Below are positions 1 to 38,337 of a stretch of DNA of 38,579 nt, piece after piece. Each line of letters opens with the position of its first letter. Position 1 is the first letter of the stretch. Source of the DNA: an uncultured Candidatus Saccharibacteria bacterium (GTDB taxonomy: Bacteria; Patescibacteriota; Saccharimonadia; QS-5-54-17). The stretch spans positions 1-38,579 of the forward strand of contig CAZXAD010000002.1 of assembly GCA_964638825.1 (NCBI GenBank). The letters run 5' to 3'. The position numbers and the translations under genes are program-made. Below the pieces are notes generated by a model. That model was not told where the DNA came from and did not search any database. It saw only the letters and a list, made by a program, of their open reading frames with translations.

Positions 1-68
1 ATGAAGACCTCGACAACGAGCGTGACCCGCAGCTGAAGAAAGCAATGGAATTGCTTTCAGAGGGTTAA
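1..68 (+). CDS. 3' end of a CDS entering from the left edge; product unknown
   Basis: Frame 3 is open from the window edge to TAA at 66-68 (..EDLDNERDPQLKKAMELLSEG*). Only 21 codons are visible, so no family call is possible. Confidence 0.3.
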   Translation, partial: EDLDNERDPQLKKAMELLSEG

Positions 69-259
69 GAATCAATAATCAATAATTACAAAGAACACTC
101 AAGAATTACATTTGCAAGCTCTCGAGGCTTTAATGAGTCCATTCAATAATTCAAGCAACAGCTTGTAATTCATAATTCAATATAAAGAGTGACAAGTTAT
201 AACAATTATACAGTACACGTGAATGCTTGCGCTAGCTCGGTTTAAACGTGGTAGTATAG

Positions 260-1888
260 GTGGAGTTTAGAGGAGAGTTGCAGGTGGCTAATACGCAAAC
301 AAAATACGTGTTCGTGACCGGAGGAGTATTATCCGGTGTGGGGAAAGGTATTACTGCTGCCAGTCTCGCCAAAATCCTCAAAAGCCGCGGCATGAAGGTG
401 AATATCCAAAAATGTGACCCGTATCTGAATACTGATGCCGGTACGCTCAATCCGGCGGAACACGGAGAGGTGTTCGTAACCGCTGACGGTGCGGAAACGG
501 ATCTTGATCTGGGGCATTACGAACGCTTTTTAGATCAGGAATTATCACAAAAAAGCTCATTAATGAGCGGCAAAGTATTATCTAACGTAATCGCGGATGA
601 GAGGGCAGGAGAATATCTGGGCAAGACCGTACAAATTATTCCGCATGTTACGAATGCCATCCAGGATGAGATAGAAGCAGCCGGAGCTGGGTGTGACGTT
701 CATTTCGTAGAAATCGGCGGTACCGTGGGTGATTATGAAGGGTTAAGCTTCCTGGAAGCTATTAGAGAATTCAAGCAAAGAGTAGGGGCGGAAAACGTTC
801 TGTATTTACACGTGGTCTATCTTCCGTATATTGAGGCCAGCAAGGAAGTAAAAACCAAACCCGCCCAGAATGCAGTGCGTAACTTGCGCAGTCTCGGTAT
901 CACGCCGGATGTACTGATTGCTCGTGCTGAGCAAGAAGCAGGAGAAGCAGTCCGTGAAAAATTACAGATGTATGCCGATATCGAGGAAGATGCGATTAGT
1001 ATTGTGCCCACTGTCGATAATGTATACAAAGTTCCGTTGAAACTGGAAGGTATTGCGAACACTATTATCCGTAAATTGACATTACATACAAAAAATGAAG
1101 ATTTACATTCCTGGAAAAAATTACTTGAGACGGCAGCTCGCGATGATTTGCCGACGGTACGCATTGGTGTAGTCGCGAAATACATGGCGCACGAAGACAC
1201 GTACAAAAGCGTGTTCGAAGCTATTAAGGCGGCTGCATGGCGCCACAAAGTCAGAGCCGAGATTACATGGGTAGACGCCGAACGTCTAGAACGAAGGTTC
1301 GATAAGCGAATGTTGAAAAATATTGACGGCATGGTGATACCGGGCGGATTCGGATCGCGTGGCATAGAAGGGAAGATTAAAGCCGCTCGCTATGCTATGG
1401 ACAATAATGTACCGTATTTGGGGTTATGTCTCGGTATGCAGGTAGGAGTGATCGCTTTGGCCCGTCAGGCCGTACATAAACGCGCCCATTCAACTGAATT
1501 TGATCCGGACACTAACCATCCGGTCATTAGCTTAATGGCAGAACAATCCGCGGTGGTGGATATGGGCGGCACGATGCGGCTGGGAAATTACGAGTGCGTG
1601 GTAGAGAAGGGTACTCGTGCACGCAAAATGTACGAAAAATCCCATGTGAATGAACGGCATCGCCACCGATATGAATTTAATAATGCCTATCGAGAGCAGT
1701 TGCAACAGGCAGGTTTGGTTCTTTCGGGCCTTTCACCGGATAATACATTAGTAGAAATGGTCGAGTTGGCTGACCATCCATTTTTTGTAGGCAGCCAATT
1801 CCATCCTGAATTTACTTCACGGCCAGAACATCCGAACCCTTTGTTCTCCGGATTCATGGCCGCTACCAAAAAACAGGGTAAAGGGTAG
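260..1888 (+). CDS. pyrG: CTP synthase
   Basis: 542-aa ORF. The N-terminus has KYVFVTGGVLSGVGKGI. The C-terminal glutamine amidotransferase has GLCLGMQ (Cys nucleophile) and HRHRYEFN. The likely true start is GTG 284, 8 nt after GGAG (272-275). Confidence 0.97.
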   Translation: MEFRGELQVANTQTKYVFVTGGVLSGVGKGITAASLAKILKSRGMKVNIQKCDPYLNTDAGTLNPAEHGEVFVTADGAETDLDLGHYERFLDQELSQKSSLMSGKVLSNVIADERAGEYLGKTVQIIPHVTNAIQDEIEAAGAGCDVHFVEIGGTVGDYEGLSFLEAIREFKQRVGAENVLYLHVVYLPYIEASKEVKTKPAQNAVRNLRSLGITPDVLIARAEQEAGEAVREKLQMYADIEEDAISIVPTVDNVYKVPLKLEGIANTIIRKLTLHTKNEDLHSWKKLLETAARDDLPTVRIGVVAKYMAHEDTYKSVFEAIKAAAWRHKVRAEITWVDAERLERRFDKRMLKNIDGMVIPGGFGSRGIEGKIKAARYAMDNNVPYLGLCLGMQVGVIALARQAVHKRAHSTEFDPDTNHPVISLMAEQSAVVDMGGTMRLGNYECVVEKGTRARKMYEKSHVNERHRHRYEFNNAYREQLQQAGLVLSGLSPDNTLVEMVELADHPFFVGSQFHPEFTSRPEHPNPLFSGFMAATKKQGKG

Positions 1889-1910
1889 AGCGTAAAGGAG
1901 AGAGGGGCAA
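1876..1910. repeat. G-type heptamer-word array (GGGTAAA GGGTAGA GCGTAAA GGAGAGA GGGGCAA)
   Basis: Read directly in 7-nt register. It starts inside the last pyrG codons (stop TAG 1886-1888). Confidence 0.7.
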
Positions 1911-1943
1911 GAAAAATAAAAGAAGATTCAACTTCTTATTTTT

Positions 1944-1978
1944 ACCCTCAACCCTTAGCCCTCTACGATTTACGCTTC
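1944..1978. repeat. C-type heptamer-word array (ACCCTCA ACCCTTA GCCCTCT ACGATTT ACGCTTC)
   Basis: Reverse-complement vocabulary of the 1876-1910 array, and an imperfect inverted repeat with it. It lies upstream of the receiver gene. Confidence 0.7.
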
Positions 1979-2025
1979 ATATAACCCTGTACATATTTCC
2001 ATAGAAACGCTACGCTTAAAGAACA

Positions 2026-2412
2026 ATGCAAGACAAGCCGAAAAAAATACTACTCGTTGAAGATGATGAAGGGTTAGCCAATGTCTATAAAGCCCGATTG
2101 GAAGCAGAGGGTTTTGAAGTGCGTCATTGCGATAACGGAGAATCAGCGTTAAGCGATGCCATGGAGTATAAACCAGATTTGATACTGCTTGACGTTATGA
2201 TGCCGGAGATAAGCGGCTTTGATGTACTGGATATATTGCGGAATACACCAGAAGTTTTCGAAATAAAAATCATTATGCTAACCGCGCTTAATCAGGATTC
2301 TGATAAGCAGCGTGCCGAGGAGCTTGGAATTGATGATTACCTTGTCAAATCACAAGTGGTAATAGCCGATGTGGTGGATCGAATCAAATATCATCTTGGC
2401 ATGACTGGCTAG
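2026..2412 (+). CDS. Stand-alone response-regulator receiver domain (CheY-like, no output domain)
   Basis: 128 aa with LLVEDD, LILLDVMMP (phospho-acceptor Asp context) and DYLVKS (conserved Lys). Paralogous to the receiver at 35588-36298 (shared GFDVLDILR.TPE and YLVKSQ). Confidence 0.9.
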   Translation: MQDKPKKILLVEDDEGLANVYKARLEAEGFEVRHCDNGESALSDAMEYKPDLILLDVMMPEISGFDVLDILRNTPEVFEIKIIMLTALNQDSDKQRAEELGIDDYLVKSQVVIADVVDRIKYHLGMTG

Positions 2413-2416
2413 AGCA

Positions 2417-2444
2417 GCGTCAAGGGTAGAGGGTTGAGCTACAG
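2417..2444. repeat. G-type heptamer-word array (GCGTCAA GGGTAGA GGGTTGA GCTACAG)
   Basis: Starts 5 nt after the receiver stop codon. Uses the same words as 9763-9776. Confidence 0.65.
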
Positions 2445-2544: not shown

Positions 2545-2600
2545 GCGTAAAGGGTTAAGGAATAGAAATTCGGAATTGGTAATTAGGATACAGAAGTGAA
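2545..2600. repeat. Heptamer array changing from G-type to A/T-type words (GCGTAAA GGGTTAA GGAATAG AAATTCG GAATTGG TAATTAG ...)
   Basis: 7-nt register read directly. Positions 2556-2576 (TAAGGAATAGAAATTCGGAAT) are identical to 16414-16434. Confidence 0.7.
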
Positions 2601-4174: not shown

Positions 4175-4263
4175 GCATTAAAACAAGCGTTGAGCGTCAA
4201 GTATAAAGGGTAAAGCATGAAAAGAACGGAAAGACAGATCATTTTCCTGTAACCATGTTTTTT

Positions 4264-4312
4264 ACTCTCAACCCTCAACCCTCAACCCTTTATGCTTAAC
4301 CCTGCTCTCAGT
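4264..4312. repeat. C-type heptamer array (ACTCTCA ACCCTCA ACCCTCA ACCCTTT ATGCTTA ACCCTGC TCTCAGT)
   Basis: Two exact tandem ACCCTCA units flanked by degenerate copies, between divergent genes. The complement carries four GGG tracts. Confidence 0.8.
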
Positions 4313-7218: not shown

Positions 7219-7270
7219 TTTAGGAATAGAAAGTATTTACATAAGAAGTTTTTTATGTTGAAATAATGTA

Positions 7271-9040
7271 ATGGCTAAACAACGGATACGCCACACGTGG
7301 CGGATTCTCAGCAAATATATCGGTAATTCCCGACGTGAGCTCGTCCTTATCTCCATTGTGGGAGTAGTATCAGCAGCTGCCAATGGAGCGGCACCGCTAC
7401 TGGTAGGGCGGTTTATTGATGCGATTCTAGAACCTTCCAGTGTCGAGTTGTGGCAATTCACCATCGCTCTCTGGGTGTTTTTAGTGGCGTTATGGTTCAG
7501 TATACAAATAATCGCGGCAGTAGCTGACTGGTTCGTATCATTACGCGGAGACCGGATGGCAGATAACCTTTACGTGTCCTATATGTCCCAAGGATTCGAA
7601 ACGTTACTGCACTTGCCGCTTTCCTTTCATAAACGCAAACAGACCGGAGATATCACCAGCAACGTCCAGCGGGGCGGCAATTATTTAGCTAGGATGGTAC
7701 ATGAGCTGGCGAGTATCGGTCCGCAACTTCTCAGCATCTTTTTCGGTATCGGAATAGCGCTATATATCAGCGTCTGGGCGAGTTTACCGTTAATCGCGGG
7801 CGTGGGTATGTATCTTTTGCTTCTGCGTCGAAACTTTGGTCGGGCCTACCATATGCGCAGAAAACAATGGGACAAATTCAGTGACGCATTCGGTGTATCC
7901 TATGACATGGTTAATAATGTCGAATCCGTAAAGCATTTTACGGCTGAAAACTATGCTTCAAAGTTGTTCACGCGTAAATTTCACAATGCGTTCCGTTGGG
8001 CCTATCAGGGTATAGTGATATGGAGTCGCGTAGGTTTCCAGCAGAAAATGTTGGTGGCCATAGTACAACTGTCGGTGTTTACTATTTCGGTACTATTAAT
8101 ACAAGCCGGTACCATGACTGTGGGCGAACTGATCGCGCTCAATGGGTATGCGGCGATGTTCTTCGGCCCGTTCGTGGCTCTCGGCCGCCGGCTCGACTTC
8201 TTTCAGGAAGCAGCTGTGGGGCTTCGCAAGGCGGAATCGATTCTGACCAGTAAGCGTGAAGCCTACACGCCCCATCGTTCTGTTCGGCCGAATGAGATAC
8301 GCGGCGAAATAGAGTTCGACAATGTATACTTTCGGTACAAATCCAAAGATGAACCGGTACTCGAAAATATCAACCTGCATATCAGGCCGGGGCAAACGCT
8401 TGCCTTGGTGGGCGAATCCGGCGTCGGAAAGAGTACGTTGGTGGATTTGATAGGAGGGTTTTATTTTCCTTCGCGGGGCAACGTCCGTATAGACGGGCGC
8501 AATATACGCCGTATTGATTTGGAATACCTGCGCCGATACATCTCCTACGTACCACAGGAAATATTGCTGTTCCATGAAACCATTTATAACAACATACGGT
8601 TTGCGAAACCGGAAGCTACTAAAGCTGAAATTGAAGAAGCGGCCCGTCGCGCGAAAGCGGATGAGTTCATTGAGAAATTTCCACAGGGATATAACACAGT
8701 AGTAGGGAAACGCGGGGTTAAGTTATCGGCCGGGCAGCGTCAGCGCATTGCTATTGCCCGGGTGATCCTGCGGGATCCGCGGGTTTTAATTCTGGATGAA
8801 CCCACCAGTGCACTGGACGCCAAGACAGAAAAAAGCCTGACAGATTCACTGGAAGAGCTGATGGAAGGGCGAACCACTATTATCATTGCCCACCGGCTTA
8901 GTACTGTGCGCCGGGCGGATGTTATTGCCACGATCAAAAACGGACAGGTTATGGAAATGGGAAGCCACGATGAGTTATTAGCCAAGGAAGCTGGTATTTA
9001 TCGGGAGCTGCATGGTTTGCAATTCGATATGAATGACTAG
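7271..9040 (+). CDS. ABC exporter, fused permease/ATPase half-transporter (MsbA/MdlB type)
   Basis: 589 aa with six N-terminal TM helices, Walker A GESGVGKST, signature LSAGQRQR and Walker B LILDEPTSALD. Confidence 0.92.
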   Translation: MAKQRIRHTWRILSKYIGNSRRELVLISIVGVVSAAANGAAPLLVGRFIDAILEPSSVELWQFTIALWVFLVALWFSIQIIAAVADWFVSLRGDRMADNLYVSYMSQGFETLLHLPLSFHKRKQTGDITSNVQRGGNYLARMVHELASIGPQLLSIFFGIGIALYISVWASLPLIAGVGMYLLLLRRNFGRAYHMRRKQWDKFSDAFGVSYDMVNNVESVKHFTAENYASKLFTRKFHNAFRWAYQGIVIWSRVGFQQKMLVAIVQLSVFTISVLLIQAGTMTVGELIALNGYAAMFFGPFVALGRRLDFFQEAAVGLRKAESILTSKREAYTPHRSVRPNEIRGEIEFDNVYFRYKSKDEPVLENINLHIRPGQTLALVGESGVGKSTLVDLIGGFYFPSRGNVRIDGRNIRRIDLEYLRRYISYVPQEILLFHETIYNNIRFAKPEATKAEIEEAARRAKADEFIEKFPQGYNTVVGKRGVKLSAGQRQRIAIARVILRDPRVLILDEPTSALDAKTEKSLTDSLEELMEGRTTIIIAHRLSTVRRADVIATIKNGQVMEMGSHDELLAKEAGIYRELHGLQFDMND

Positions 9041-9106
9041 TGATCAGTAAATAGTTGTGTCTTTCGGTTGTTCCCTGTAAGCATATGCGTTACTATAATA
9101 TCCAAG

Positions 9107-9742
9107 ATGCAAGAAAATAATAACAACGCAGTTCTTATATTTATTCTCGGTTTTTTGGTGGTGGCGCTCGCTGCATTAGCCGGTTGGTCGCTTTTTAAGT
9201 ACCATCAGGAACGGACAACCGTCCAAGAGCAAATTGACGCTGCTGTACAGGAAGCCAAACAGGAACAGAAAAAAACTGATGAAGCCAGATTCGAAGAAGA
9301 ACGGAAGAAACCGTTCCGCACCTATACAGCACCGGAAGTTTTTGGGGGAATTACCTTATCGTTCCCGAAAACCTGGAATATTTACGTGGAAGATTCTACC
9401 AGCGGAAGCACGCTAGTCGATCTCACCATGCATCCGGAACTCATCCGGGAGCAGCAAGGGAACGATATTCCGCGGGCATTCCGCATGCAGCTTATCAATA
9501 GCCTATTCGAAGACGCTACTCGCAGCCATCGCAGTGACGCGGAAAAAGGCGATCTTGAGGCTAACACTATTACGGTCTCCGGAATAGAAGGCATTCGATA
9601 CGAAGGTGAAATTCGTGATGAGTACGATGGAAGTCTCGTCGCGCTGCCGTATCGTGACAAAACCATACTGATGTGGACAGAAAGCCAAAAGTTTGTATCC
9701 GATTTCAATACCGTTTTGAAAAAGGCAGAGATCAGCCGATAG
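9107..9742 (+). CDS. Membrane-anchored protein of unknown function
   Basis: Single N-terminal TM helix (AVLIFILGFLVVALAALAGW), then a charged coiled segment and a roughly 140-aa domain. The ORF extends at most to 9068, but ATG 9107 lies 7 nt after a perfect TATAAT (9094-9099). Confidence 0.6.
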   Translation: MQENNNNAVLIFILGFLVVALAALAGWSLFKYHQERTTVQEQIDAAVQEAKQEQKKTDEARFEEERKKPFRTYTAPEVFGGITLSFPKTWNIYVEDSTSGSTLVDLTMHPELIREQQGNDIPRAFRMQLINSLFEDATRSHRSDAEKGDLEANTITVSGIEGIRYEGEIRDEYDGSLVALPYRDKTILMWTESQKFVSDFNTVLKKAEISR

Positions 9743-9797
9743 GGAATAGGGTTAAGCGTAAAGCGTCAAGGGTAGAGAACGAATTACGAACTAAAGA
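9742..9797. repeat. G-type heptamer array (GGGAATA GGGTTAA GCGTAAA GCGTCAA GGGTAGA GAACGAA TTACGAA CTAAAGA)
   Basis: Strict 7-nt register starting on the last base of the stop codon TAG (9740-9742). Confidence 0.75.
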
Positions 9798-10000
9798 AAA
9801 TATATACTTAAACAACTAATTCCGGATTGTAGCCTGCCAGTTCGTTTGGAGAGTTTATACTCAGAGTCGAAGACCGGCAAAGACAGACCAGGAAACACAA
9901 AGAGAAAGGATTTATTTTTCAAAGTTTTGCATTTTGTGGCTCCTTCGGTTGTTTTTAATTCTTAATTCATTTTTACTAGCTTGGGCGGACTATTAATACG

Positions 10001-10030
10001 TTAACTCTCTACGCTTTACCCTCAACTCTG
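10001..10030. repeat. C-type heptamer array (TTAACTC TCTACGC TTTACCC TCAACTC)
   Basis: Reverse-complement words of the G-type vocabulary. It lies 20-50 nt upstream of the kinase -10 box. Confidence 0.7.
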
Positions 10031-10045
10031 TGTTCTCCCACGGCC

Positions 10046-10054
10046 TGCTACAAT
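10046..10054 (+). promoter_or_regulatory. Extended -10 element TGC-TACAAT, 6 nt before ATG 10061 (leaderless candidate)
   Basis: TGnTACAAT read directly. No SD is present. The predicted transcription start coincides with the A of the ATG. Confidence 0.55.
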
Positions 10055-10060
10055 ATACCT

Positions 10061-10771
10061 ATGAGAAGTCAAGACGCCTCCCGTGAGCTGGAGTTGATAG
10101 CAGCGACCGTCCACGAATTAAAAGCACCGTTAACTCTGATACACGGTATGGGGGCGATGCTTGAATCTGAGTCTCCCGAAAAGCTAACCGCGCGACAACA
10201 AGAGCAGTTGCAGCAAATCCGGAAAGCCAGCCACCGATTAAATTCATTAGTGGAGAGTTTGCTGCACGTGGAGAATTTGCCATATATACAACATGCCCAG
10301 CCCGTACAGATTCATAGCGAGTTACACACAGTAATGGAAGAAACTAAATCCTTGACCCGTGAACGAAATGTGGCGCTGGTATGGCGGCCACGGAAAACAC
10401 TTCCGCCCGTTTTAGCCGATCCAATCAGTACGTATCAGTTGTTGAGTCACGCGATAACAGCAGTAGTGAAGTATTCTCCCTCAGGTTCCGAAGTAGTGAT
10501 GCGCACCCGCCGCCGCGGCAGCATGATCGTCTTGCATATCGATGCTCCCGGTGAGCCGATTACTCCCAGTGAAGCACATCGTATCACCGAAATTCTCGGT
10601 AAGCATTTGCAACCTGTCCGCGGACACGGTAATTCTGCCGGGCTTAGTTGGTACATAGTGAAATCCATAGTAGAATTTTACGAGGGATCGTTGAAAGTTT
10701 CACCCGGGTCGGAATATACGACGATTGCAATCCGATTGCCGGTAAGCAATCAACTGAGTTTATTTTCATAA
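10061..10771 (+). CDS. Minimal cytoplasmic histidine kinase (HisKA + HATPase_c only)
   Basis: 236 aa with H-box HELKAPLTLI and a C-terminal ATPase region (..GLSWYIVKSIVEFYEGSL). No TM helix or sensor domain is visible. Confidence 0.8.
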   Translation: MRSQDASRELELIAATVHELKAPLTLIHGMGAMLESESPEKLTARQQEQLQQIRKASHRLNSLVESLLHVENLPYIQHAQPVQIHSELHTVMEETKSLTRERNVALVWRPRKTLPPVLADPISTYQLLSHAITAVVKYSPSGSEVVMRTRRRGSMIVLHIDAPGEPITPSEAHRITEILGKHLQPVRGHGNSAGLSWYIVKSIVEFYEGSLKVSPGSEYTTIAIRLPVSNQLSLFS

Positions 10772-11997: not shown

Positions 11998-12033
11998 ACT
12001 TAAACCGGTAAATCATGATTTACCGGTTTAAGT
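11998..12033. repeat. 36-bp perfect palindrome ACTTAAACCGGTAAATCATGATTTACCGGTTTAAGT
   Basis: Both arms were verified base by base. It lies 23 nt after the recO stop. No U-tract follows on either strand. Confidence 0.85.
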
Positions 12034-12141: not shown

Positions 12142-12339
12142 ATGACTAAAGAACATATATGGCCAGCAACTCCACAACAACCGCAACCAGAATATTTTCA
12201 TGGAATAAACGGCGAAGGTGTTATTTCAGCAGCTGGCGTACTAGAGGTGTTACGTAATACTCTTACTCCTGATGAACGTGAGGAAACCGATACAGGTGGC
12301 ACGACCGAAGGAAATAATGATGACGACAGAGAAACGTAA
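12142..12339 (+). CDS. Small acidic protein of unknown function (65 aa)
   Basis: The ORF has its own promoter-like element and a TAGGAG Shine-Dalgarno 7 nt upstream. The C-terminus is strongly acidic (EETDTGGTTEGNNDDDRET). Confidence 0.5.
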   Translation: MTKEHIWPATPQQPQPEYFHGINGEGVISAAGVLEVLRNTLTPDEREETDTGGTTEGNNDDDRET

Positions 12340-12402: not shown

Positions 12403-12444
12403 GGATACTTTATACTTAGTACACGATACTTTATACTGTTAAGG
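12403..12444 (+). repeat. Two tandem 21-nt units, each containing GATACTTTATACT (TATACT -10-like box)
   Basis: The two units are 12403-12423 and 12424-12444, with a 13-nt exact core. The second TATACT ends 8 nt before the glyQS ATG. Confidence 0.75.
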
Positions 12445-12445
12445 C

Positions 12446-16363: not shown

Positions 16364-16383
16364 ATACTCTTAGTATAACGTAT

Positions 16384-16460
16384 GGGAAGGGTAGAGGGTT
16401 AAGAGCAGAAGGGTAAGGAATAGAAATTCGGAATACTATATTCTAAATTCCGTATTTCAT
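16384..16460. repeat. Heptamer array: G-type words (GGGTAGA GGGTTAA ..) grading into A/T-type words (GGAATAG AAATTCG GAATACT ATATTCT AAATTCC)
   Basis: 7-nt register with one 1-nt phase slip. It contains the exact 21-mer shared with 2556-2576 and four GGG tracts. Confidence 0.7.
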
Positions 16461-24663: not shown

Positions 24664-25020
24664 CACCTATGCTATAGGTAACATGTAACTATTTCGCATA
24701 TAACAAAAGGAGGTAACATGTATCATATAGCAATTTTCAAAACTTTTTAACTGCTACATGAAACATGGTAAATCTATGCTACATGATAATTGATACATAT
24801 AGTCCATGCTACTTGGTGGAGTAGTGCCCCGCCCTCCCCGTTTTCTGTTCGTTTTTTGTTCATATAACTAAATGGTGGCCCCAGATAGAAATTATTTTTA
24901 TATATTTAAATATAATATATGCATATAGTCAAATAGGCGAGAGAGAAGAGTAGGAGAGAATAGAAGTGGAGTAGTGTCAAATAAATAATCGAACATGCAT
25001 CCGTGTGTGGTCTGTGGAAA

Positions 25021-25038
25021 ATGTGATTTAAATCACAT
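25021..25038. promoter_or_regulatory. 18-bp perfect palindrome ATGTGATTTAAATCACAT (exact TGTGA-N6-TCACA, CRP/FNR-type half-sites)
   Basis: Verified base by base. On the - strand, TTGACA (25054-25049) lies 17 nt upstream of TTAAAT at the palindrome centre. Confidence 0.5.
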
Positions 25039-25235
25039 AGTAATAAGTTGTCAAAAATAATACGGAACTCAACGGAGCACGCTCTTGGAATGAATCACAG
25101 TACGCATAATCAATAAAAGCGCGGCATGTAACACGAAAGTTCCTGAGAGTAGTGTTATAAGGGTGGATGAGAGTACTCTCCCCCTATAAGCACTCTTATG
25201 CCAGGATATTAAATGGATATATAATGCTTTTCCGT

Positions 25236-25275
25236 AAAAATTGAAGTACGTCGCAAAATATACATTGTGCGACGT
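25236..25275 (-). terminator. Candidate intrinsic terminator of the ATPase gene
   Basis: 8-bp stem ACGTCGCA/TGCGACGT (25248-25255 and 25268-25275) with a 12-nt loop. On the - strand a TTTTT run follows after 7 nt. It lies 93 nt past the stop codon. Confidence 0.4.
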
Positions 25276-25367
25276 TATAGTTATGTAAGGGTTCGCTTAC
25301 TTTTTTTATTTGCTTGTGACTGTCCTCGTGTTCATTATGTGTTTTTGTATTCTCTTGCTCCCTTTTG

Positions 25368-28052
25368 TTATTTACGTCTCCGTAGCTTCACCACTTCGTC
25401 CGGTCGCAAGTTCGCGTCTGAGTCTGAATCTTGGCTGTTTTGCGTTTGCGGCTGATTTTCAGGTTTTGTTTGGACTGGTCTTTTTTGTTGCTGCTGCTGT
25501 CCGCCTGATGCGTGTTTCGGTTTTTGTTTGTGTTGGTTGCTGCGATTTTGACTCCGTTGTCCGCCTCCGGCGTGCTGTCGTTGTTGTTGCTGCTGTTGTT
25601 GTCCGCCTGAGCCGGATTTCGGTTTTTGTTCATCCACTTGTGTCCAGGCGCGGATTTTCTGCTCAACCTCTGAGCGTCCAGAGGCGAAGGTACTGCGCGA
25701 ATGTTCGATAATATTAGGTATAAAGTCGCTTTCGGTATCAGGAACACTTAAAGAGTGGGCAGTGAACGGCGGCGCTTTTTCTCCGTCGATACTCATATTG
25801 ATAATGAAGTTTTGGTTATGAAGTTTTATGAGGTCTTCGCTTTCGAATGTGGGCGAGAAATATTTGGCCAAATACGGCGCGTCGTCCGCGCTAACACGGA
25901 AAGAGATGATCGAACCCACGTTACCGAATACCGCGTCGCGGACCTCCTGGGACATTTGCGATATATACTGGTTGGCGATCGTCAGGTTCAACCCGTATTT
26001 GCGGGCTTCTGATAATATAACCGCGAATGAATCCGTGGCAAAATTCTGGAATTCATCCACGTATAGATTAAACGGGCGCCGTTCTTCCAAGTGCGTGATG
26101 TTGGCCCGGCTCATGGCGGCCAGCTGGATTTTGGTAACCATGAGAGCACCCAGAGTGGCTGCGTTGTCCTCCCCTACCTGGCCGCGACTCAGGTTGACGA
26201 TTAAAATTTTACCCTCGTCCATCATTTTCCGGATATTAAAGGCGCTCTGAGGTTGGCCGATGATGTTGCGAACCAGCGGATTAGCAGTGAAGGCGCCTAC
26301 TTTATTCAGGATGGGCGCAACTGCTTCAGAGGCAAACTTTTCGTTCCAGGAAGCGAACTCGTTCACCCAGAAGTTCTTGACCACTGGATCCTGGATTTCT
26401 TTGATTACATCATCGCGGAATTGCTTTTCCGTTAACATGCGGGTTATGCCGAGCAATGTGGCGTTTGGGTAATCCAGTAGCGCCAGGATGGTATACCGCA
26501 GAATATACTCGAGCCGTGGCCCCCAAGAGTACCCGAACATGCGCTTTAGAGCTCCCACAACTTCTGAAGAAATGTGGCTTTTAAGGCTTGGGTCAGTAAC
26601 TTCCAGGGGATTGAATGCCACCGGGTATTCCGTATCAGCCGGATTGAAATACACTACGTCCTTCACCCGGTGTTCAGGGATATATCGTAACACATCGGCT
26701 GCAAAATCCCCGTGGGGGTCGATAGTGGCAAATCCTCCTCCATGGTAAATATCTGAAAGTGTTAATAACAACAACAAATAGGATTTCCCGGTGCCGGTTT
26801 GCCCTACTACGTACACATGCCGGCCACGGTCGCTTCGTTTAATACCGAATTGGTGGTTATGCCCCCGGAAATTTGTCACGCCTATCGGGCTTAATTCTTC
26901 TTGGGGTATGGTTGCTACCGATGGAAGATTAGAGGGTGGTTCGGCCGTTTTGTTATTCGCCCATACTACATTCGGGGTTTCGACGTTCGCGTGAGGCAAG
27001 TGGTACAGACTGGCGAGCTCCTCGATATTTAGAATAAACCCTCTATCAATGAATAATCGGGCGCGGTACTGTTTGATTGCTTCCTCGCCGCTGAGTTGCT
27101 TGCTGGATTTGAAGCCGTTGGTAACGTCATTGAATTGTTTGAACGCGCCGAGTAATGCTTGCATACGCAGCCGTGACAACGTTTTATCATTGCCGATATG
27201 GACGATTCGTACTTTTACTTCGTATCCGAGTTTGGCAATTTTATCGTTCGTGGATTGGATCATAGCTTTTTGTTGGTCGGAGACTTCGGGTTGTTTACTC
27301 CCTCCTTCCCCACTGTTGGGCGGTTTCCAGAGCGCGACAAAAAAGTCGCCGAGTAGTTTCTGCAATTTTCCGCCGGTTCCTGAACCGCCGCTTCTGAGCC
27401 GGGATATATATGCTTCGCCTTTTTTATGCCAGCTATCTTCGATCGGCCGGGCCAGTATTTGTATCCACGCTTGTTCGCTCGGATCTTCAAGTTTGGCCAA
27501 TACAGCGGTAATTCCTCCTAATGGATCAACTTCAAAACTATTAAACGTGCGGATCGGTAATACGTCGGGATTGGATAGTTTCAGCTCTAAAGATTCAGCC
27601 ACGTAGTTTTCAGGTAGTTCTTGGCGGGCATAATCTTCATTCAGTTCCACGATATTTACGCTTGGGTACTGGGCATATACCTGACCTTCTATAAAATTCT
27701 GTAAATGGTGGGGCGTCCAGATATAGAAACGGATTTTTTGATCAACGGCCGCGATTTCAAAACTGATGTGTTCCTGTATCCCTCCCTCACGCAATAATTC
27801 CTGTTTAGGCCGCAGAATTCCATGCAAACTGGCAAAAAGTTGTTCAGCGGAAAGCTCACGTTTCTCATTGTTGCGAGGCAACTCCAGCATGAGGAGACTG
27901 TATTTGGAATCGCTCACCCAGCGTTGTTTGCGCACATTCTGCCAGATAAGAAAACCGAAGACAGCCACGACAACTACCCAGCCGCCCCAATCAAAGAGCA
28001 ACTTGCCCAGAAACTGGATAATTGTAAAAAATATACTGAAGAGAAGATTCAT
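25368..28052 (-). CDS. Membrane-anchored P-loop ATPase, VirD4/TraG/TraD (type IV coupling protein)-like, with a Q-rich disordered C-terminal tail
   Basis: 894 aa with N-terminal TM helices, Walker A GQTGTGKS and IDPHGD. A long helical insert precedes Walker B (LYVDEFQNF), followed by SEARKYGLNLTIANQ. The tail is ..QKPKSGSGGQQQQQQQ..QKPKHASGGQQQQQ... Confidence 0.8.
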   Translation of the reverse strand: MNLLFSIFFTIIQFLGKLLFDWGGWVVVVAVFGFLIWQNVRKQRWVSDSKYSLLMLELPRNNEKRELSAEQLFASLHGILRPKQELLREGGIQEHISFEIAAVDQKIRFYIWTPHHLQNFIEGQVYAQYPSVNIVELNEDYARQELPENYVAESLELKLSNPDVLPIRTFNSFEVDPLGGITAVLAKLEDPSEQAWIQILARPIEDSWHKKGEAYISRLRSGGSGTGGKLQKLLGDFFVALWKPPNSGEGGSKQPEVSDQQKAMIQSTNDKIAKLGYEVKVRIVHIGNDKTLSRLRMQALLGAFKQFNDVTNGFKSSKQLSGEEAIKQYRARLFIDRGFILNIEELASLYHLPHANVETPNVVWANNKTAEPPSNLPSVATIPQEELSPIGVTNFRGHNHQFGIKRSDRGRHVYVVGQTGTGKSYLLLLLTLSDIYHGGGFATIDPHGDFAADVLRYIPEHRVKDVVYFNPADTEYPVAFNPLEVTDPSLKSHISSEVVGALKRMFGYSWGPRLEYILRYTILALLDYPNATLLGITRMLTEKQFRDDVIKEIQDPVVKNFWVNEFASWNEKFASEAVAPILNKVGAFTANPLVRNIIGQPQSAFNIRKMMDEGKILIVNLSRGQVGEDNAATLGALMVTKIQLAAMSRANITHLEERRPFNLYVDEFQNFATDSFAVILSEARKYGLNLTIANQYISQMSQEVRDAVFGNVGSIISFRVSADDAPYLAKYFSPTFESEDLIKLHNQNFIINMSIDGEKAPPFTAHSLSVPDTESDFIPNIIEHSRSTFASGRSEVEQKIRAWTQVDEQKPKSGSGGQQQQQQQRQHAGGGQRSQNRSNQHKQKPKHASGGQQQQQKRPVQTKPENQPQTQNSQDSDSDANLRPDEVVKLRRRK

Positions 28053-34900: not shown

Positions 34901-35584
34901 TTATAGGTTCGTTATATCCTTGTATTCCCCTTCTTTCAAGGTAGAAAGTGAGTACTCTCCGAACTCAGTACGCAACAAATCGGTCACTTCGTATCCGAGA
35001 ACCTCGAACGTACGCCGTATCTGACGGTTCCGTCCCTCGCGCATAACAATGCGCCATACGCGATTCCTAATTTCTAATTTCGAATTTCTAATTTCTGTAA
35101 GTTTGAAGCGACTGGTATATTCGTTATCAATATTTACGCCGGCTTCGATGTGCTGTTTATCGTTTAAAGTTAACGGTTGATCAAGCTTAGCTTCGTAAAC
35201 TTTAATCTTTCGATGTTTCGGGTGTGTTAACTCATGGGCAAGCGCCCCGTCGTTGGTTAAAAGCAACAATCCCCGGCTATCTTTGTCCAGGCGCCCGACT
35301 GGCTTTAAATGGTGCACGTCTTCAGGTAACAATGAATAAATCGTCGGAGTATTTCCTTGGGGTTGACGGCTGACAACATACCCGGCCGGTTTGTTAAATA
35401 AAATGGTGGTTTTCGGTGCAAGGTTTATATTCTCGCCGTCTATTTGCACGGTATCGGAAGGATTTACATATTGACCGACTTGCGCGGGCTTCCTATTTAC
35501 ATATACTTTTCCGTTTTTAATGTATTCGTCGGCGGCGCGACGTGATACTCCTGTAGCGCGTGCTATGTACTGGTTTATGCGCAC
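34901..35584 (-). CDS. rRNA pseudouridine synthase, RsuA/RluB family (S4 domain + catalytic domain)
   Basis: 227 aa with an S4 N-terminus (RINQYIARATGVSRRAADEYI), catalytic GRLDKDSRGLLLLTNDG and EGRNRQIRR. GTG start 3 nt after the receiver stop. Confidence 0.9.
   Translation of the reverse strand: MRINQYIARATGVSRRAADEYIKNGKVYVNRKPAQVGQYVNPSDTVQIDGENINLAPKTTILFNKPAGYVVSRQPQGNTPTIYSLLPEDVHHLKPVGRLDKDSRGLLLLTNDGALAHELTHPKHRKIKVYEAKLDQPLTLNDKQHIEAGVNIDNEYTSRFKLTEIRNSKLEIRNRVWRIVMREGRNRQIRRTFEVLGYEVTDLLRTEFGEYSLSTLKEGEYKDITNL
35064..35098. repeat. Five tandem heptamers inside the pseudouridine synthase CDS (TTCCTAA TTTCTAA TTTCGAA TTTCTAA TTTCTGT)
   Basis: Read directly. On the coding strand it is GAAATTA-type, close to the intergenic AGAAATTCGGAAT word. 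It encodes the 7-aa periodic EIRNSKL/EIRNRVW. Confidence 0.75.
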
Positions 35585-35587
35585 TGT

Positions 35588-36298
35588 CTATGAAGAATTT
35601 TGCTGGTTGTCGGGCGAATTCTGTTGCATCTGTGTGTCGATATCATTGATTTCATCAGCCGCTTGATTCGGTTGTTTTGATTTCGATTGTGGCTGAGTGC
35701 TGGCATTCGAAGCTTGTTCGTTCGAATCATCAGAATTTGTATTATCCGAATCATCGTCTGTAGTCGCTTGCGACGAATCGGTAGGATTCTGTTTTGAATT
35801 TTGTGCAGTTTGCTGTTCTGGCTGCTCATTTGTTTGTGCTGGCCGTTGTTGTGAGCTACCCGAGTTTTGCGACCCTTCATCCGGTAAACGTCCCTCCGAA
35901 GTCGTTACGATTGATTGCGTTGACTCGTCAGTGTCTTCCACCATTTCTTTCACTGTTTCGACTACATCTTCAAGAGTGATTTGTGATTTAACCAAATATT
36001 TATCCACCCCCAATTTTTCTCCTCGTTCTTGATCGGACTGCTGGCTTAGGGCCGACAACATAACAACTTTCGTATTTTCCGTTTCAGGAGTGGAACGAAG
36101 AATATCCAGTACGTCGAATCCGCTAATTTTCGGCATCATGATATCAAGCAGGATAAGAGTCGGGTTTTCAGAAACTGCTTTCGATAATGCTTCTTCTCCA
36201 TCTGAAGCGAGTACGAGTTCGTGTCCTTCAGCACTCAGCCGGGCAGCATATATTTCTCGGAGATTGATATCGTCTTCTACCAGTAATACTTTAGCCAT
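35588..36298 (-). CDS. Response-regulator receiver domain with a roughly 110-aa low-complexity S/Q/D/N-rich tail (no recognisable output domain)
   Basis: 236 aa with LLVEDD, LILLDIMMP and KYLVKSQ, followed by ..SQNSGSSQQRPAQTNEQPEQQTAQNSKQNPTDSSQATTDDDSDNTNSDDSNEQ... Confidence 0.85.
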   Translation of the reverse strand: MAKVLLVEDDINLREIYAARLSAEGHELVLASDGEEALSKAVSENPTLILLDIMMPKISGFDVLDILRSTPETENTKVVMLSALSQQSDQERGEKLGVDKYLVKSQITLEDVVETVKEMVEDTDESTQSIVTTSEGRLPDEGSQNSGSSQQRPAQTNEQPEQQTAQNSKQNPTDSSQATTDDDSDNTNSDDSNEQASNASTQPQSKSKQPNQAADEINDIDTQMQQNSPDNQQNSS

Positions 36299-38082: not shown

Positions 38083-38110
38083 AATAAATCTTATGGTTAG
38101 CTTACACTTC

Positions 38111-38180
38111 AGTATAAAGTATAACGGGTAAAGTATTAAGAGCAGAAAACAGAAGCAGAGTGAAATCCTAAATACTAATC
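38111..38180. repeat. Heptamer array (AGTATAA AGTATAA CGGGTAA AGTATTA AGAGCAG AAAACAG AAGCAGA GTGAAAT CCTAAAT ACTAATC)
   Basis: 7-nt register read directly. AGTATAA is the reverse complement of the TTATACT word found at 38307-38320 and 12404-12437. Confidence 0.7.
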
Positions 38181-38292
38181 CGCCAGCCGGCGGACGAAAT
38201 ACTAAACAAGCCACAATATCTAATATTCAAAATTCTAAACCGTTTAGGTTATTGGGAATTTAAATTTTAGAAATTGTACGATAATCCTGGTC

Positions 38293-38334
38293 TTTCATAC
38301 TCAACACTTTATACTTTATACTAAATACTGCCTT
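38293..38334. repeat. Heptamer array (TTTCATA CTCAACA CTTTATA CTTTATA CTAAATA CTGCCTT) ending 3 nt before the tRNA
   Basis: Read directly. It contains TATACT -10-like boxes upstream of tRNA-Glu. Confidence 0.75.
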
Positions 38335-38337
38335 TGA

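What the first reader, a model, noticed from the sequence alone, without database searches (positions are those of the whole stretch)
9742..10030. Combinatorial heptamer-word arrays (GSGTWRA vocabulary) punctuate the intergenic DNA
Starting on the last base of the TAG that ends the 9107-9742 ORF, the + strand reads GGGAATA GGGTTAA GCGTAAA GCGTCAA GGGTAGA GAACGAA TTACGAA in strict 7-nt register. About 200 bp later, just upstream of the kinase gene, the reverse-complement words appear: TTAACTC TCTACGC TTTACCC TCAACTC. The same small vocabulary (GGGTAGA, GGGTTAA, GGGTTGA, GGGTAAA, GCGTAAA, GCGTCAA) is reused in different orders at 1876-1910, 1944-1978, 2417-2444, 2545-2558, 4264-4312 and 16389-16417. 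These sites are always outside, or at the very edge of, coding sequence. G-type arrays tend to begin at stop codons. C-type arrays (in gene orientation) occupy roughly -20 to -60 of the next start. Tandem heptanucleotide repeats are known in heterocystous cyanobacteria (STRR elements), but I do not recognise this vocabulary or the shuffled-word organisation.
Basis: partly seen in the sequence, partly recalled or inferred. Interest (0 to 1): 0.7.

Follow-up and report, generated by a model that had tools for sequence, protein, structure and literature searches.

The report
Degenerate 7-base repeat arrays at gene edges
The intergenic DNA of this Saccharimonadales (candidate phyla radiation) bacterium carries real, far-from-chance arrays of 7-base words; they are a new example of a known but functionally unexplained class of bacterial heptanucleotide repeats, not a new kind of element.

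Summary
Words of the form G[GC]GT[ACT][AG]A sit next to each other in strict 7-nt register 14 times, against 0.05 expected. Period 7 is the only non-coding periodicity in the window. The arrays lie at the gene-proximal edges of intergenic regions.

The window comes from a Saccharimonadales (TM7/CPR) genome. Each array abuts the ORF on its 5' side, and its G-rich strand reads away from that ORF. Where both edges of an intergenic region carry an array, they form a convergent G...C pair that can fold into a long imperfect hairpin.

This anatomy was already described for GGGAATC and GGGGAYT heptamer repeats in Xanthomonas and Nostoc (Rehm et al. 2015). These belong to the heptanucleotide "long simple sequence repeats" of Mrazek et al. 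2007.

A strain 98.5% identical differs by exactly one 7-nt unit, which swaps the pyrG stop codon. Closer relatives have no arrays, or arrays with other 7-nt vocabularies. A Levyibacteriota MAG uses the same vocabulary.

G-quadruplex, MITE, canonical terminator and spaced -35 box readings each fail a test. The best reading is slippage-driven heptamer repeats of unproven function. It is a new member of a known kind, of moderate interest.

The parts
58..106 (+). G/A-type heptamer array GGGTTAA GAATCAA TAATCAA TAATTAC... It begins on the stop codon (TAA, 66-68) of the truncated ctpB gene.
   Evidence: Period-7 run; sequence. The L128 ortholog ends in GGGTAAA GCGCGAA GCGTAGA GGGTAGA.
1876..1910 (+). 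G-type array GGGTAAA GGGTAGA GCGTAAA GGAGAGA GGGGCAA. The pyrG stop codon (TAG, 1886-1888) lies inside the second word.
   Evidence: Strain contig L001 lacks exactly 1882-1888, which moves the stop to the TAA of GCGTAAA.
1941..1979 (-). C-type on the + strand (TTTACCC TCAACCC TTAGCCC TCTACGA TTTACGC). It is the convergent partner of 1876-1910, 47 nt upstream of the response-regulator start (2026).
   Evidence: It folds with 1876-1910 into a 100-nt imperfect hairpin, -35.1 kcal/mol, z = -4.5.
2417..2444 (+). G-type array GCGTCAA GGGTAGA GGGTTGA GCTACAG, 4 nt after the response-regulator stop (2410-2412).
2545..2590 (+). Composite array: GCGTAAA GGGTTAA followed by words of a second vocabulary (..TAGAAAT TCGGAAT TGGTAAT TAGGATA). 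It lies between convergent genes and abuts neither, so it is an exception to the positional rule.
   Evidence: (family D3). It shares an exact 20-mer with 16415-16434.
4187..4221 (+). G-type array GCGTTGA GCGTCAA GTATAAA GGGTAAA GCATGAA. It is C-type in the orientation of the - strand methyltransferase gene, at -9 to -43 of its start (4178).
4261..4309 (-). C-type on the + strand: TTTACTC TCAACCC x3 TTTATGC TTAACCC TGCTCTC. It lies upstream of the LPG-synthase gene (4325) and is the convergent partner of 4187-4221.
   Evidence: TRF finds 3.3 perfect copies of CTCAACC. The pair folds at -31.1 kcal/mol, z = -3.8.
9742..9790 (+). G-type array of the finding: GGGAATA GGGTTAA GCGTAAA GCGTCAA GGGTAGA GAACGAA TTACGAA. 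It starts on the last base of the stop of the 211-aa ORF.
9791..10000 (.). Non-repetitive spacer between the two arms. It has no Rfam match and no convincing ORF, and it contains a long imperfect hairpin followed by a T-run. It is absent from relatives, whose orthologous intergenic region is 76-158 nt against 318 nt here.
10001..10028 (-). C-type on the + strand: TTAACTC TCTACGC TTTACCC TCAACTC. It ends 20 nt before a TACAAT -10 box that sits 6 nt before the kinase ATG (10061).
   Evidence: It pairs with 9742-9790 in the fold of 9736-10040, z = -3.0.
16389..16435 (+). G-type array GGGTAGA GGGTTAA GAGCAGA, a 1-nt register shift, then GGGTAAG GAATAGA AATTCGG. It is C-type in the orientation of the - strand GSDH gene, starting at -26 from its start codon (16363) and running outwards.
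12405..12439 (-). Heptamer array of another vocabulary (ATACTTT ATACTTA GTACACG ATACTTT ATACTGT), directly upstream of proS. It contains repeated TATACT (-10-like) hexamers.
38108..38140 (+). AGTATAA AGTATAA CGGGTAA AGTATTA AGAGCAG array, upstream of the - strand histidine kinase. It mixes the AGTATAA and GGGTAA words.
   Evidence: (I4: 81% complementary to 38294-38325).
38288..38335 (-). TCATACT CAACACT TTATACT TTATACT AAATACT array ending 2 nt before tRNA-Glu (38338). It is the convergent partner of 38108-38140.
35063..35096 (-). 4.9 copies of TAGAAAT-type heptamers, in frame inside the pseudouridine synthase CDS (34901-35584, -). They encode EIRNSKLEIRN.
   Evidence: TRF score 54; Pfam PseudoU_synth_2 spans the region; sequence.

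Best explanation
These are degenerate heptanucleotide simple-sequence-repeat arrays. They belong to the class called long simple sequence repeats with 7-nt units. Their anatomy matches the heterogeneous G-rich heptamer repeats of Xanthomonas and Nostoc.

Shown:
- The invariant feature is the 7-nt unit, not the word. Several vocabularies coexist in the window, and relatives use others.
- Arrays gain or lose whole units. One strain differs by exactly 7 nt.
- Arrays turn over quickly between relatives.
- Arrays sit against the ORF on their 5' side, with the G/purine-rich strand reading away from it. As a result they overlap stop codons on the coding strand, or lie just upstream of starts on the non-coding strand.
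- When both edges of an intergenic region carry an array, the two form a convergent G...C pair. The pair can fold into a long imperfect hairpin.

Inferred:
- Arrays are born and resized by replication slippage in 7-nt steps and then blurred by point mutation.
- The G-type orientation is tolerated right at gene ends because most of its words carry TAA, TAG or TGA. Runs of adjacent words can therefore offer stops in more than one frame. A 7-nt slip that reaches the ORF then only swaps the stop and the last residue.
- G-type words upstream on the coding strand would create Shine-Dalgarno-like and start-like sequences, and are avoided.
- Any function, such as a boundary hairpin in read-through transcripts or an effect on promoter context, is secondary and unproven.
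For: Register and periodicity:
- 14 adjacent word pairs against 0.05 expected.
- Period 7 gives 11 runs and other periods give 0-1.
- Several vocabularies occur in one window.

Unit gain or loss:
- L001 is 98.5% identical over 5.6 kb and differs by a clean 7-nt deletion (1882-1888).
- The deletion changes the pyrG end from KG-TAG to KA-TAA.

Weak constraint at strain level:
- Divergence events in array regions run at about 3.6%, against about 1.3% elsewhere. This is my tally from the difference list.
- 5 of the 6 substitutions mapped to recognisable words hit the 'conserved' word positions.

Turnover between relatives:
- Syntenic relatives L123, L124, L127 and L129 have 0-1 arrays and short intergenic regions.
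- L125 has 12 arrays in 17.6 kb with CTTGCTC/CTTACTT words.
- L128 has CAGTATC/CAGTATT units right after the stop of the 211-aa ortholog, and GGGTAAA GCGCGAA GCGTAGA GGGTAGA on the ctpB stop.

Same vocabulary elsewhere:
- A Levyibacteriota MAG (L044) shows the same vocabulary and layout.
- A four-word pattern, which I estimate should occur about 0.3 times by chance (a by-hand figure assuming equal base frequencies, not a tool result), hit more than 120 contigs from many phyla.
- In those contigs, 45 of 58 intergenic arrays have the 5' neighbour ORF closer (median 20 against 98 nt, p = 3e-5).

Literature:
- PMC4692102 reports the same positional rule, convergent pairs, heterogeneous units and variability between species.
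- PMC4679880 summarises Mrazek 2007: heptanucleotide units are the commonest long SSR, and slippage was proposed as the cause.
Against: - Slippage alone makes identical neighbouring units. Here most neighbours differ; only 4268-4288 is homogeneous.
- Over 42 words, positions 1, 3, 4 and 7 are 79-98% conserved while positions 2, 5 and 6 vary. Founder words decaying at random would not give this pattern.
- The same six words recur at nine loci and in a distant CPR phylum. This calls for selection on the word form, sequence-dependent slippage, or a copying mechanism.
- Arrays sit at the edges of intergenic regions rather than filling them.
- The upstream (non-coding-strand) arrays are not explained by seeding at stop codons.
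- Only one 7-nt indel was observed, and only a 38.6-kb window plus about 100 kb of relatives was examined.
Confidence: 0.7

Rival explanations
1. Boundary hairpins. The convergent G...C pairs are selected to form long stem-loops in read-through RNA, or cruciforms in DNA. These would end, stabilise or insulate transcripts between neighbouring genes in a genome that appears here to lack an excess of canonical intrinsic terminators.
For: - All three pairs of this vocabulary fold better than every shuffle: z = -4.5, -3.8 and -3.0.
- The 38108/38294 pair is 81% complementary.
- L044 has a G-arm, a T-run and a C-arm between two genes.
- L062 and L023 show the same convergent layout.
- Canonical terminator-like sites are not significantly enriched in the window: 25 against 18 +/- 4.2.
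Against: - There is no partner specificity. Non-partner arms pair as well or better, for example G4 x C3 at -40.4 against G4 x C4 at -27.0 kcal/mol. Complementarity therefore follows from the shared vocabulary.
- No U-tract follows the 3' arm.
- The arrays at 2417, 2545 and 16389 have no partner.
- In the pyrG/RR pair, most sequence differences between window and L001 lie within the arms, with no compensatory pattern visible.
Confidence: 0.25
2. Arrays of binding sites for a sequence-specific nucleic-acid-binding protein. The protein would recognise the G.GT..A word, or its RNA form, and act as a global regulator or nucleoid organiser.
For: - Word positions 1, 3, 4 and 7 are conserved while 2, 5 and 6 vary.
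- The same words recur at many loci and in a Levyibacteriota MAG.
- A binding partner has been proposed, but not found, for heptamer repeats in Nostoc and Beggiatoaceae.
Against: - Other 7-nt vocabularies in the same genome and in relatives share the layout. A single word-specific protein cannot explain the class.
- Close relatives with the same genes lack the arrays altogether.
- Strain-level substitutions fall on the 'conserved' positions.
- No candidate protein was identified.
Confidence: 0.15
3. Ends of small non-autonomous mobile elements (MITE-like). The G and C arrays would be the terminal inverted repeats, and the spacer would be the element body inserted between genes.
For: - The whole 9742-10030 unit is absent from relatives. 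Orthologous intergenic regions are 76-87 nt in L123, L124, L127 and L129 and 158 nt in L128, against 318 nt here.
- In L125, heptamer arrays flank MITE-like palindromes.
Against: - The spacers share no similarity with each other within the window.
- Arms are not mirror copies and are not partner-specific.
- No target-site duplication is evident.
- In L125, arrays also flank the palindromes in direct orientation. That fits insertion into pre-existing arrays better than arrays being the ends of elements.
- Many arrays are unpaired.
Confidence: 0.07
4. G-quadruplex-forming repeats, as proposed for GGGAATC repeats in Xanthomonas.
For: About half of the words begin with GGG. The positional rule is the same as in PMC4692102.
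Against: - No array has four G3 tracts with loops of 7 nt or less. Only 2 arrays qualify with loops up to 12 nt.
- 31% of words are GCG and 14% are GAG.
- The AGTATAA and TAGAAAT vocabularies have no G-tracts.
Confidence: 0.05
5. Tandem promoter elements. C-type words (TTGACGC, TTTACCC, TTAACCC) would act as -35 boxes. TATACT-type words would act as -10 boxes for the downstream, often leaderless, genes.
For: - The word consensus T[CT]nAC resembles TTGACA.
- -10-like boxes lie 6-8 nt before several ATGs, just downstream of the arrays.
- A TATACT lies inside the 4187-4221 array.
- Repeated TATACT hexamers precede proS and tRNA-Glu.
Against: - Spacing from the last C-type word to the -10 box is 21, 15, 12 or more than 30 nt at the four promoters checked. 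None is 16-18 nt (by hand, from the sequences printed).
- The consensus promoter scan shows no enrichment: 26 against 27.8.
- G-type arrays after stop codons would then point promoters into the preceding gene.
Confidence: 0.05

Closest known systems
Heterogeneous G-rich heptamer repeats of Xanthomonas (GGGAATC / GGGANTN) and Nostoc PCC 7120 (GGGGAYT); Rehm et al. 2015, PLoS One, PMC4692102
   Same: - 7-nt units in strict register, with heterogeneous units and fixed and variable positions.
- About 90% are intergenic.
[quoted passage not shown] - Convergent inverted pairs are frequent.
- Length and sequence vary between close relatives.
- Function is unknown.
   Different: - The word is different (GSGTWRA).
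- About half of the words lack a GGG tract, and no array meets the canonical G-quadruplex rule.
- Arrays are shorter and much more degenerate.
- The host is a small-genome CPR bacterium.
Heptanucleotide long simple sequence repeats (LSSR), Mrazek, Guo & Shah 2007, as summarised in PMC4679880
   Same: - The 7-nt unit is the favoured long-repeat unit.
- The phylogenetic distribution is patchy.
- Replication slippage is the proposed origin. The whole-unit indel between strains seen here fits that.
   Different: - LSSRs were defined on near-perfect repeats. Here most neighbouring units differ.
- No CPR genome was described in the papers I could search.
STRR (short tandemly repeated repetitive) heptamers of heterocystous cyanobacteria
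   Same: Tandem heptamers in non-coding DNA, present in many copies per genome.
   Different: The STRR1-3 words as I recall them (CCCCAGT, TTGGTCA, CAACAGT), quoted from memory and not checked with a tool, do not match. The organism is not a cyanobacterium.
TAACTGA direct repeats of marine Beggiatoaceae, some Cyanobacteria and Bacteroidetes (MacGregor 2015, PMC4679880)
   Same: Intergenic heptamer direct repeats of 2-6 copies next to gene starts. One word is shared across distant phyla with no evident transfer mechanism. A binding protein was proposed but not found.
   Different: [quoted passage not shown] Here the upstream arrays are on the opposite strand, further from the start, and many arrays sit at stop codons.

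Membership tests
Heptanucleotide SSR arrays (LSSR / Rehm-type heterogeneous heptamer repeats) | Head-to-tail units of exactly 7 nt, at least 2 units, beyond chance | tested here: met
   14 adjacent pairs against 0.05 expected. Period 7 gives 11 runs against 0-1 for other periods. TRF reports period-7 arrays.
Heptanucleotide SSR arrays (LSSR / Rehm-type heterogeneous heptamer repeats) | Strong bias to non-coding DNA | tested here: met
   5.65 against 1.42 words per kb. All arrays of this vocabulary are intergenic or overlap only a stop codon.
Heptanucleotide SSR arrays (LSSR / Rehm-type heterogeneous heptamer repeats) | Array abuts its 5' neighbour ORF: coding strand at stops, non-coding strand upstream of starts | tested here: met
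   8 of 9 arrays in the window fit; the exception is 2545-2590. In the sample from other phyla, 45 of 58 arrays fit.
Heptanucleotide SSR arrays (LSSR / Rehm-type heterogeneous heptamer repeats) | Convergent inverted pairs | tested here: met
   Four pairs: 1876/1941, 4187/4261, 9742/10001 and 38108/38288.
Heptanucleotide SSR arrays (LSSR / Rehm-type heterogeneous heptamer repeats) | Unit-number variation between strains or relatives | tested here: met
   One exact 7-nt indel against L001. Arrays are present, absent or use other words in relatives. This rests on a single indel event.
G-quadruplex-forming repeats (sub-class claimed by Rehm et al.) | At least four G3 tracts with short loops per array | tested here: not met
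   0 arrays with loops of 7 nt or less; 2 arrays with loops up to 12 nt.
STRR of heterocystous cyanobacteria | The specific STRR heptamers, in a cyanobacterial genome | tested here: not met
   The 42 words tallied include none of the STRR heptamers as I recall them (recalled, not checked with a tool). The best named CTP synthase hits are Saccharimonadales, with synteny to two Saccharimonadales assemblies.
MITE | Near-identical dispersed copies with partner-specific terminal inverted repeats and target-site duplications | tested here: not met
   Spacers are unrelated to each other. Arms are not partner-specific. The test was limited to a 38.6-kb window.
Intrinsic (Rho-independent) terminator | Short GC-rich stem-loop followed directly by a U-tract | tested here: not met
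   No array pair appears among the terminator-like sites. The 3' arms are not followed by T-runs.
Integron attC site | 5'-RYYYAAC...GTTRRRY-3' order of core sites, plus a nearby integrase | tested here: not met
   GTTAAGC lies in the 5' arm and GCTTAAC in the 3' arm, which is the opposite order. No Pfam hit to an integrase was found among the 30 ORFs scanned.
DNA uptake sequences | Genome-wide over-representation of the word, including inside genes | tested here: not met
   Isolated words in coding DNA occur at or below shuffled expectation: 1.42 per kb observed against about 1.7 per kb.

The most novel reading that the evidence does not exclude
Heptamer arrays could be a widespread, orientation-specific gene-boundary signal. 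In this reading, an as-yet unknown conserved factor or process reads 7-nt-periodic, purine-rich 'exit' sequences. These sequences lie on any transcript or strand leaving an ORF. The signal would insulate neighbouring transcription units. The GSGTWRA vocabulary shared by Saccharimonadales and Levyibacteriota would then be one dialect kept by selection rather than by slippage. The conserved word positions, the recurrence of one vocabulary in two CPR phyla, and the same 5'-neighbour rule in contigs from many phyla are compatible with this reading. They do not demonstrate it.
Probability: 0.1. Interest if true: 0.8.

Novelty: new member of a known kind. Interest (0 to 1): 0.4.

Why it matters
Heptanucleotide repeats are the commonest long simple repeat in bacteria. 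Nearly twenty years after they were catalogued, neither the preference for 7 nt nor the strict placement against the 5' neighbouring gene has been explained.

This window shows the same anatomy in a candidate-phyla-radiation bacterium, a group expected to have a small, streamlined genome. It offers:
- several vocabularies side by side in one genome;
- a clean one-unit strain polymorphism that swaps a stop codon;
- close relatives that lack the arrays altogether.

That makes a compact comparative system for two questions. One is which gene content tracks array-rich genomes. The other is whether the arrays mark transcript ends, given that some Saccharibacteria are now cultivable and genetically tractable (PMC10633639; title and abstract only).

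For annotation, the practical points are:
- These arrays can overlap and shift stop codons.
- They can occur in frame inside genes.
- They inflate intergenic length relative to relatives.

Tried and rejected
- **G-quadruplex.** I counted G3 tracts, and no array passes the canonical rule.
- **Partner-specific hairpins.** The duplex-energy matrix shows non-partner arms pair equally well.
- **-35 boxes.** Spacings to the -10 boxes are wrong, and the promoter scan shows no enrichment.
- **Canonical terminators.** None was found at the arrays.
- **Known RNA families.** None was found in 9700-10100 even at E up to 1. The only hit in the whole window was tRNA-Glu.
- **Small ORFs in the 9791-10000 spacer.** None is convincing.
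- **attC sites.** The core sites are in the wrong order and there is no integrase.
- **HutP- or TRAP-like triplet arrays.** Only 5 of 42 words carry UAG.
- **DNA uptake sequences.** There is no excess in coding DNA.
- **Horizontally acquired island as the reason the second half lacks arrays.** GC content is uniform. That half is core genome, consisting of the dcw cluster, topA, dprA, pth and der.

Searches that gave nothing:
- The look-up of encoding contigs found no record for the 211-aa protein or the kinase.
- A metagenome scan for relatives of the 211-aa protein found none.
It is therefore a sample, not a census, and it did not reach the source genome.
Full report
**1. The observation**

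The quoted words are in the sequence at the stated coordinates.

I defined a word as G[GC]GT[ACT][AG]A on either strand.
- The window holds 81 words, against 67 +/- 8 in dinucleotide-preserving shuffles.
- It holds 14 same-strand pairs exactly 7 nt apart, against a shuffle mean of 0.05 and a maximum of 1.
- The signal is therefore the tandem register, not word frequency.

A word-independent self-match scan gives 11 runs at period 7 and 0-1 at periods 4-6 and 8-13. Arrays of at least two perfect words lie at the following coordinates, where the sign is the strand that carries the G-rich words:
- 1876-1896 (+)
- 1941-1954 (-)
- 2417-2437 (+)
- 2545-2558 (+)
- 4187-4200 (+)
- 4268-4288 (-)
- 9749-9776 (+)
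- 10008-10021 (-)
- 16389-16402 (+)

These are, and each extends further through degenerate words.

With rough ORF calls, word density is 5.65 per kb in non-coding DNA and 1.42 per kb in coding DNA. Over 42 words:
- Position 1 is G in 95%.
- Position 3 is G in 83%.
- Position 4 is T in 79%.
- Position 7 is A in 98%.
- Positions 2, 5 and 6 vary.

**2. The organism and its relatives**

The genes are housekeeping genes: pyrG, L27, xseA, recO, proS, the dcw cluster, topA and others. The best named CTP synthase hits are Candidatus Saccharimonadales, at 67-71% identity. Gene order matches two Saccharimonadales assemblies. The window is therefore a chromosomal segment of a TM7/CPR bacterium with 47% GC.

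**3. Anatomy**

These are one rule. Each array abuts the ORF on its own 5' side, and its G-rich strand reads away from that ORF.

Where both edges of an intergenic region carry an array, the result is a convergent 5'-G...C-3' pair. The pairs are 1876/1941, 4187/4261 and 9742/10001, plus 38108/38288 in another vocabulary.
- The three pairs of this vocabulary fold into long imperfect hairpins better than any shuffle, with z = -4.5, -3.8 and -3.0.
- The complementarity is generic. Non-partner arms pair as well or better.

Three arrays are unpaired: 2417-2444, 2545-2590 and 16389-16435. Of these, 2545-2590 does not abut an ORF either, so it is also an exception to the positional rule.

Most G-type words contain TAA, TAG or TGA. 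Arrays begin on or within a few nucleotides of the stops of ctpB, pyrG, the response regulator and the 211-aa ORF.

Several downstream genes have a -10-like box 6-8 nt before the ATG, which suggests leaderless transcripts. The C-type arrays lie upstream of these boxes but at no fixed spacing.

**4. The 7-nt unit is the constant; the vocabulary is not**

The same window has period-7 arrays built from other words:
- TAGAAAT/TCGGAAT at 2563-2590 and 16421-16435, and in frame inside a pseudouridine synthase gene at 35063-35096.
- AGTATAA/ATACTTT at 12405-12439, 38108-38140 and 38288-38335.
- TAATCAA at 70-86.

Mixed arrays such as AGTATAA AGTATAA CGGGTAA AGTATTA, and GCGTCAA GTATAAA GGGTAAA, join the vocabularies.

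**5. Dynamics**

- Contig L001 is 98.5% identical over 5.6 kb. It lacks exactly 1882-1888, one heptamer. This moves the pyrG stop from the TAG of GGGTAGA to the TAA of GCGTAAA and changes the last residue from G to A.
- Array regions carry about 3.6% difference events against about 1.3% elsewhere. This is my tally from the difference list.
- 5 of the 6 substitutions mapped to recognisable words fall on the 'conserved' positions. There is therefore no sign of purifying selection at this time scale.
- Syntenic relatives L123, L124, L127 and L129 have 0-1 arrays. Their 211-aa/kinase intergenic region is 76-87 nt, against 318 nt here.
- L125 has 12 arrays in 17.6 kb built from CTTGCTC/CTTACTT words. 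Many of them flank MITE-like palindromes.
- L128 has CAGTATC/CAGTATT units directly after the stop of the 211-aa ortholog. It also has GGGTAAA GCGCGAA GCGTAGA GGGTAGA on the ctpB stop, the same gene end that carries GGGTTAA GAATCAA... in the window.

**6. Beyond this lineage**

By my own estimate (made by hand assuming equal base frequencies, not a tool result), a four-word pattern should occur about 0.3 times by chance in the 596-Gb genome collection.
- Most hits are homogeneous tandem heptamers from Planctomycetota, Gemmatimonadota, Bacteroidota, Cyanobacteria, Acidobacteriota, Proteobacteria and other phyla.
- A Levyibacteriota MAG (L044) has shuffled words of the same vocabulary in the same layout.
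  - TTGACGC TTAACCC TTAACGC TTTACGC fills the 30 nt between one gene's TGA and the next ATG.
  - GCGTTAA GGGTAAA GCGTCAA starts on the next stop and faces a C-type arm across a T-run.
- With crude ORF calls, 45 of 58 intergenic arrays in this sample have the 5' neighbour closer (median 20 against 98 nt, p = 3e-5).
- Arrays without stop codons show the same trend, 8 of 11, but the number is too small to decide.

**7. What is known**

Rehm et al. 2015 (PMC4692102) described GGGAATC/GGGANTN repeats in Xanthomonas and GGGGAYT repeats in Nostoc. They reported:
- about 90% of repeats in intergenic DNA;
- arrays nearer the 5' neighbour ORF;
- 70-75 convergent inverted pairs per genome;
- extensive variation between sister species;
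- no identified function.

MacGregor 2015 (PMC4679880) described TAACTGA repeats. That paper also summarises Mrazek et al. 2007: heptanucleotide units dominate long simple repeats in prokaryotes, possibly through polymerase slippage. A Nostoc preprint reports modest effects of heptamer repeats on recF and recO expression and speculates about a binding partner. I found no paper in the searchable library linking CPR bacteria to heptamer repeats.

**8. Interpretation**

The arrays meet every tested defining feature of heterogeneous heptamer SSRs except G-quadruplex capacity. No array has four G3 tracts with loops of 7 nt or less.

The best-supported account is slippage-driven birth and resizing in 7-nt steps, followed by point-mutational blurring.
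- Placement is filtered by what gene edges tolerate. Stop-rich G-type words are harmless at 3' ends, where a slip merely swaps the stop, as seen in L001.
- G-rich, Shine-Dalgarno-like and start-containing words are avoided upstream on the coding strand. This filter is inference.

Some observations remain unexplained:
- the conserved word positions;
- the recurrence of the same six words at many loci and in a second CPR phylum;
- the edge rather than centre placement of the arrays.

These keep a functional reading open, either boundary hairpins or a binding factor.

Other readings were tested and rejected: MITE ends, canonical terminators, attC sites, uptake sequences and correctly spaced -35 boxes.

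**9. Verdict**

The feature is real and statistically robust. It is a new member, in both host group and vocabulary, of a known class whose function is still open. Interest is moderate (0.4). It is useful mainly as a compact comparative system for the unresolved heptamer-repeat question.

Noticed in passing
window 35063-35096 (- strand), inside CDS 34901-35584: A 4.9-copy heptamer array (TAGAAAT TAGAAAT TCGAAAT TAGAAAT TAGGAAT) lies in frame inside an RsuA/RluB-type pseudouridine synthase gene. It encodes EIRNSKLEIRN. Three heptamers equal 21 nt, so the reading frame is kept. It may be a repeat-derived insertion in the protein.
   Followed up: partly
window 11998-12033: A perfect 36-nt palindrome (ACTTAAACCGGTAAATCA|TGATTTACCGGTTTAAGT) lies 23 nt after the recO stop. 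It precedes a small SD-led ORF (12142-12339, 65 aa) that corresponds in position to the 75-76-aa ORFs between recO and proS in L123 and L128 (similarity not checked).
   Followed up: partly
window 9093-9106, 10049-10060, 12430-12445, 16364-16377 (-): -10-like hexamers (TATAAT, TACAAT, TATACT) sit 6-8 nt before the ATG of several genes, with no Shine-Dalgarno sequence. This suggests many leaderless mRNAs in this genome. The TACAAT before the kinase gene is conserved in L123, L124 and L127.
   Followed up: partly
window 7271-9040: An ABC transporter gene (fused membrane and ATPase domains, 589 aa) sits between the 148/159-aa methyltransferase-like ORF and the 211-aa ORF. It is absent at this position from all five syntenic relatives examined (L123, L124, L127, L128, L129).
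   Followed up: no
window 2557-2576 and 16415-16434: An exact 20-nt repeat, AAGGAATAGAAATTCGGAAT, joins a GSGTWRA array to a TMGRAAT-type array at two unlinked loci. A related sequence (TTTAGGAATAGAAAGTATTTAC) lies at 7219-7240.
   Followed up: no
L125 3117-3943, 7608-7909, 9140-9552, 12620-12986, 14088-14601, 16363-16945: In this Saccharimonadales relative, intergenic regions are swollen to 300-800 nt. They contain MITE-like palindromic modules (for example GTCATTCCGGCC..GGCCGGAATGAC and CCTGAAACAAGCCTGCCTGCCGGCAGGCAGG..) nested between heptamer arrays of the CTTGCTC/AAGTAAG type. Sometimes the flanking arrays are in direct orientation, as if the modules had inserted into the arrays.
   Followed up: partly
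window 2182-2253 and 36083-36154: A 72-nt inverted repeat, 74% complementary, lies between two response-regulator genes on opposite strands (2026-2412 + and 35588-36298 -). It most likely reflects paralogous receiver domains rather than a structural element.
   Followed up: no
window 24664-25367 and 25368-28052 (-): A 704-nt AT-rich intergenic region with short 10-11-nt tandem repeats precedes an 894-aa protein with TrwB/TraG-like type IV coupling-protein domains. The 5' part of that gene holds a 47-nt imperfect triplicated repeat with TGT/TGC triplet runs (25482-25630).
   Followed up: no
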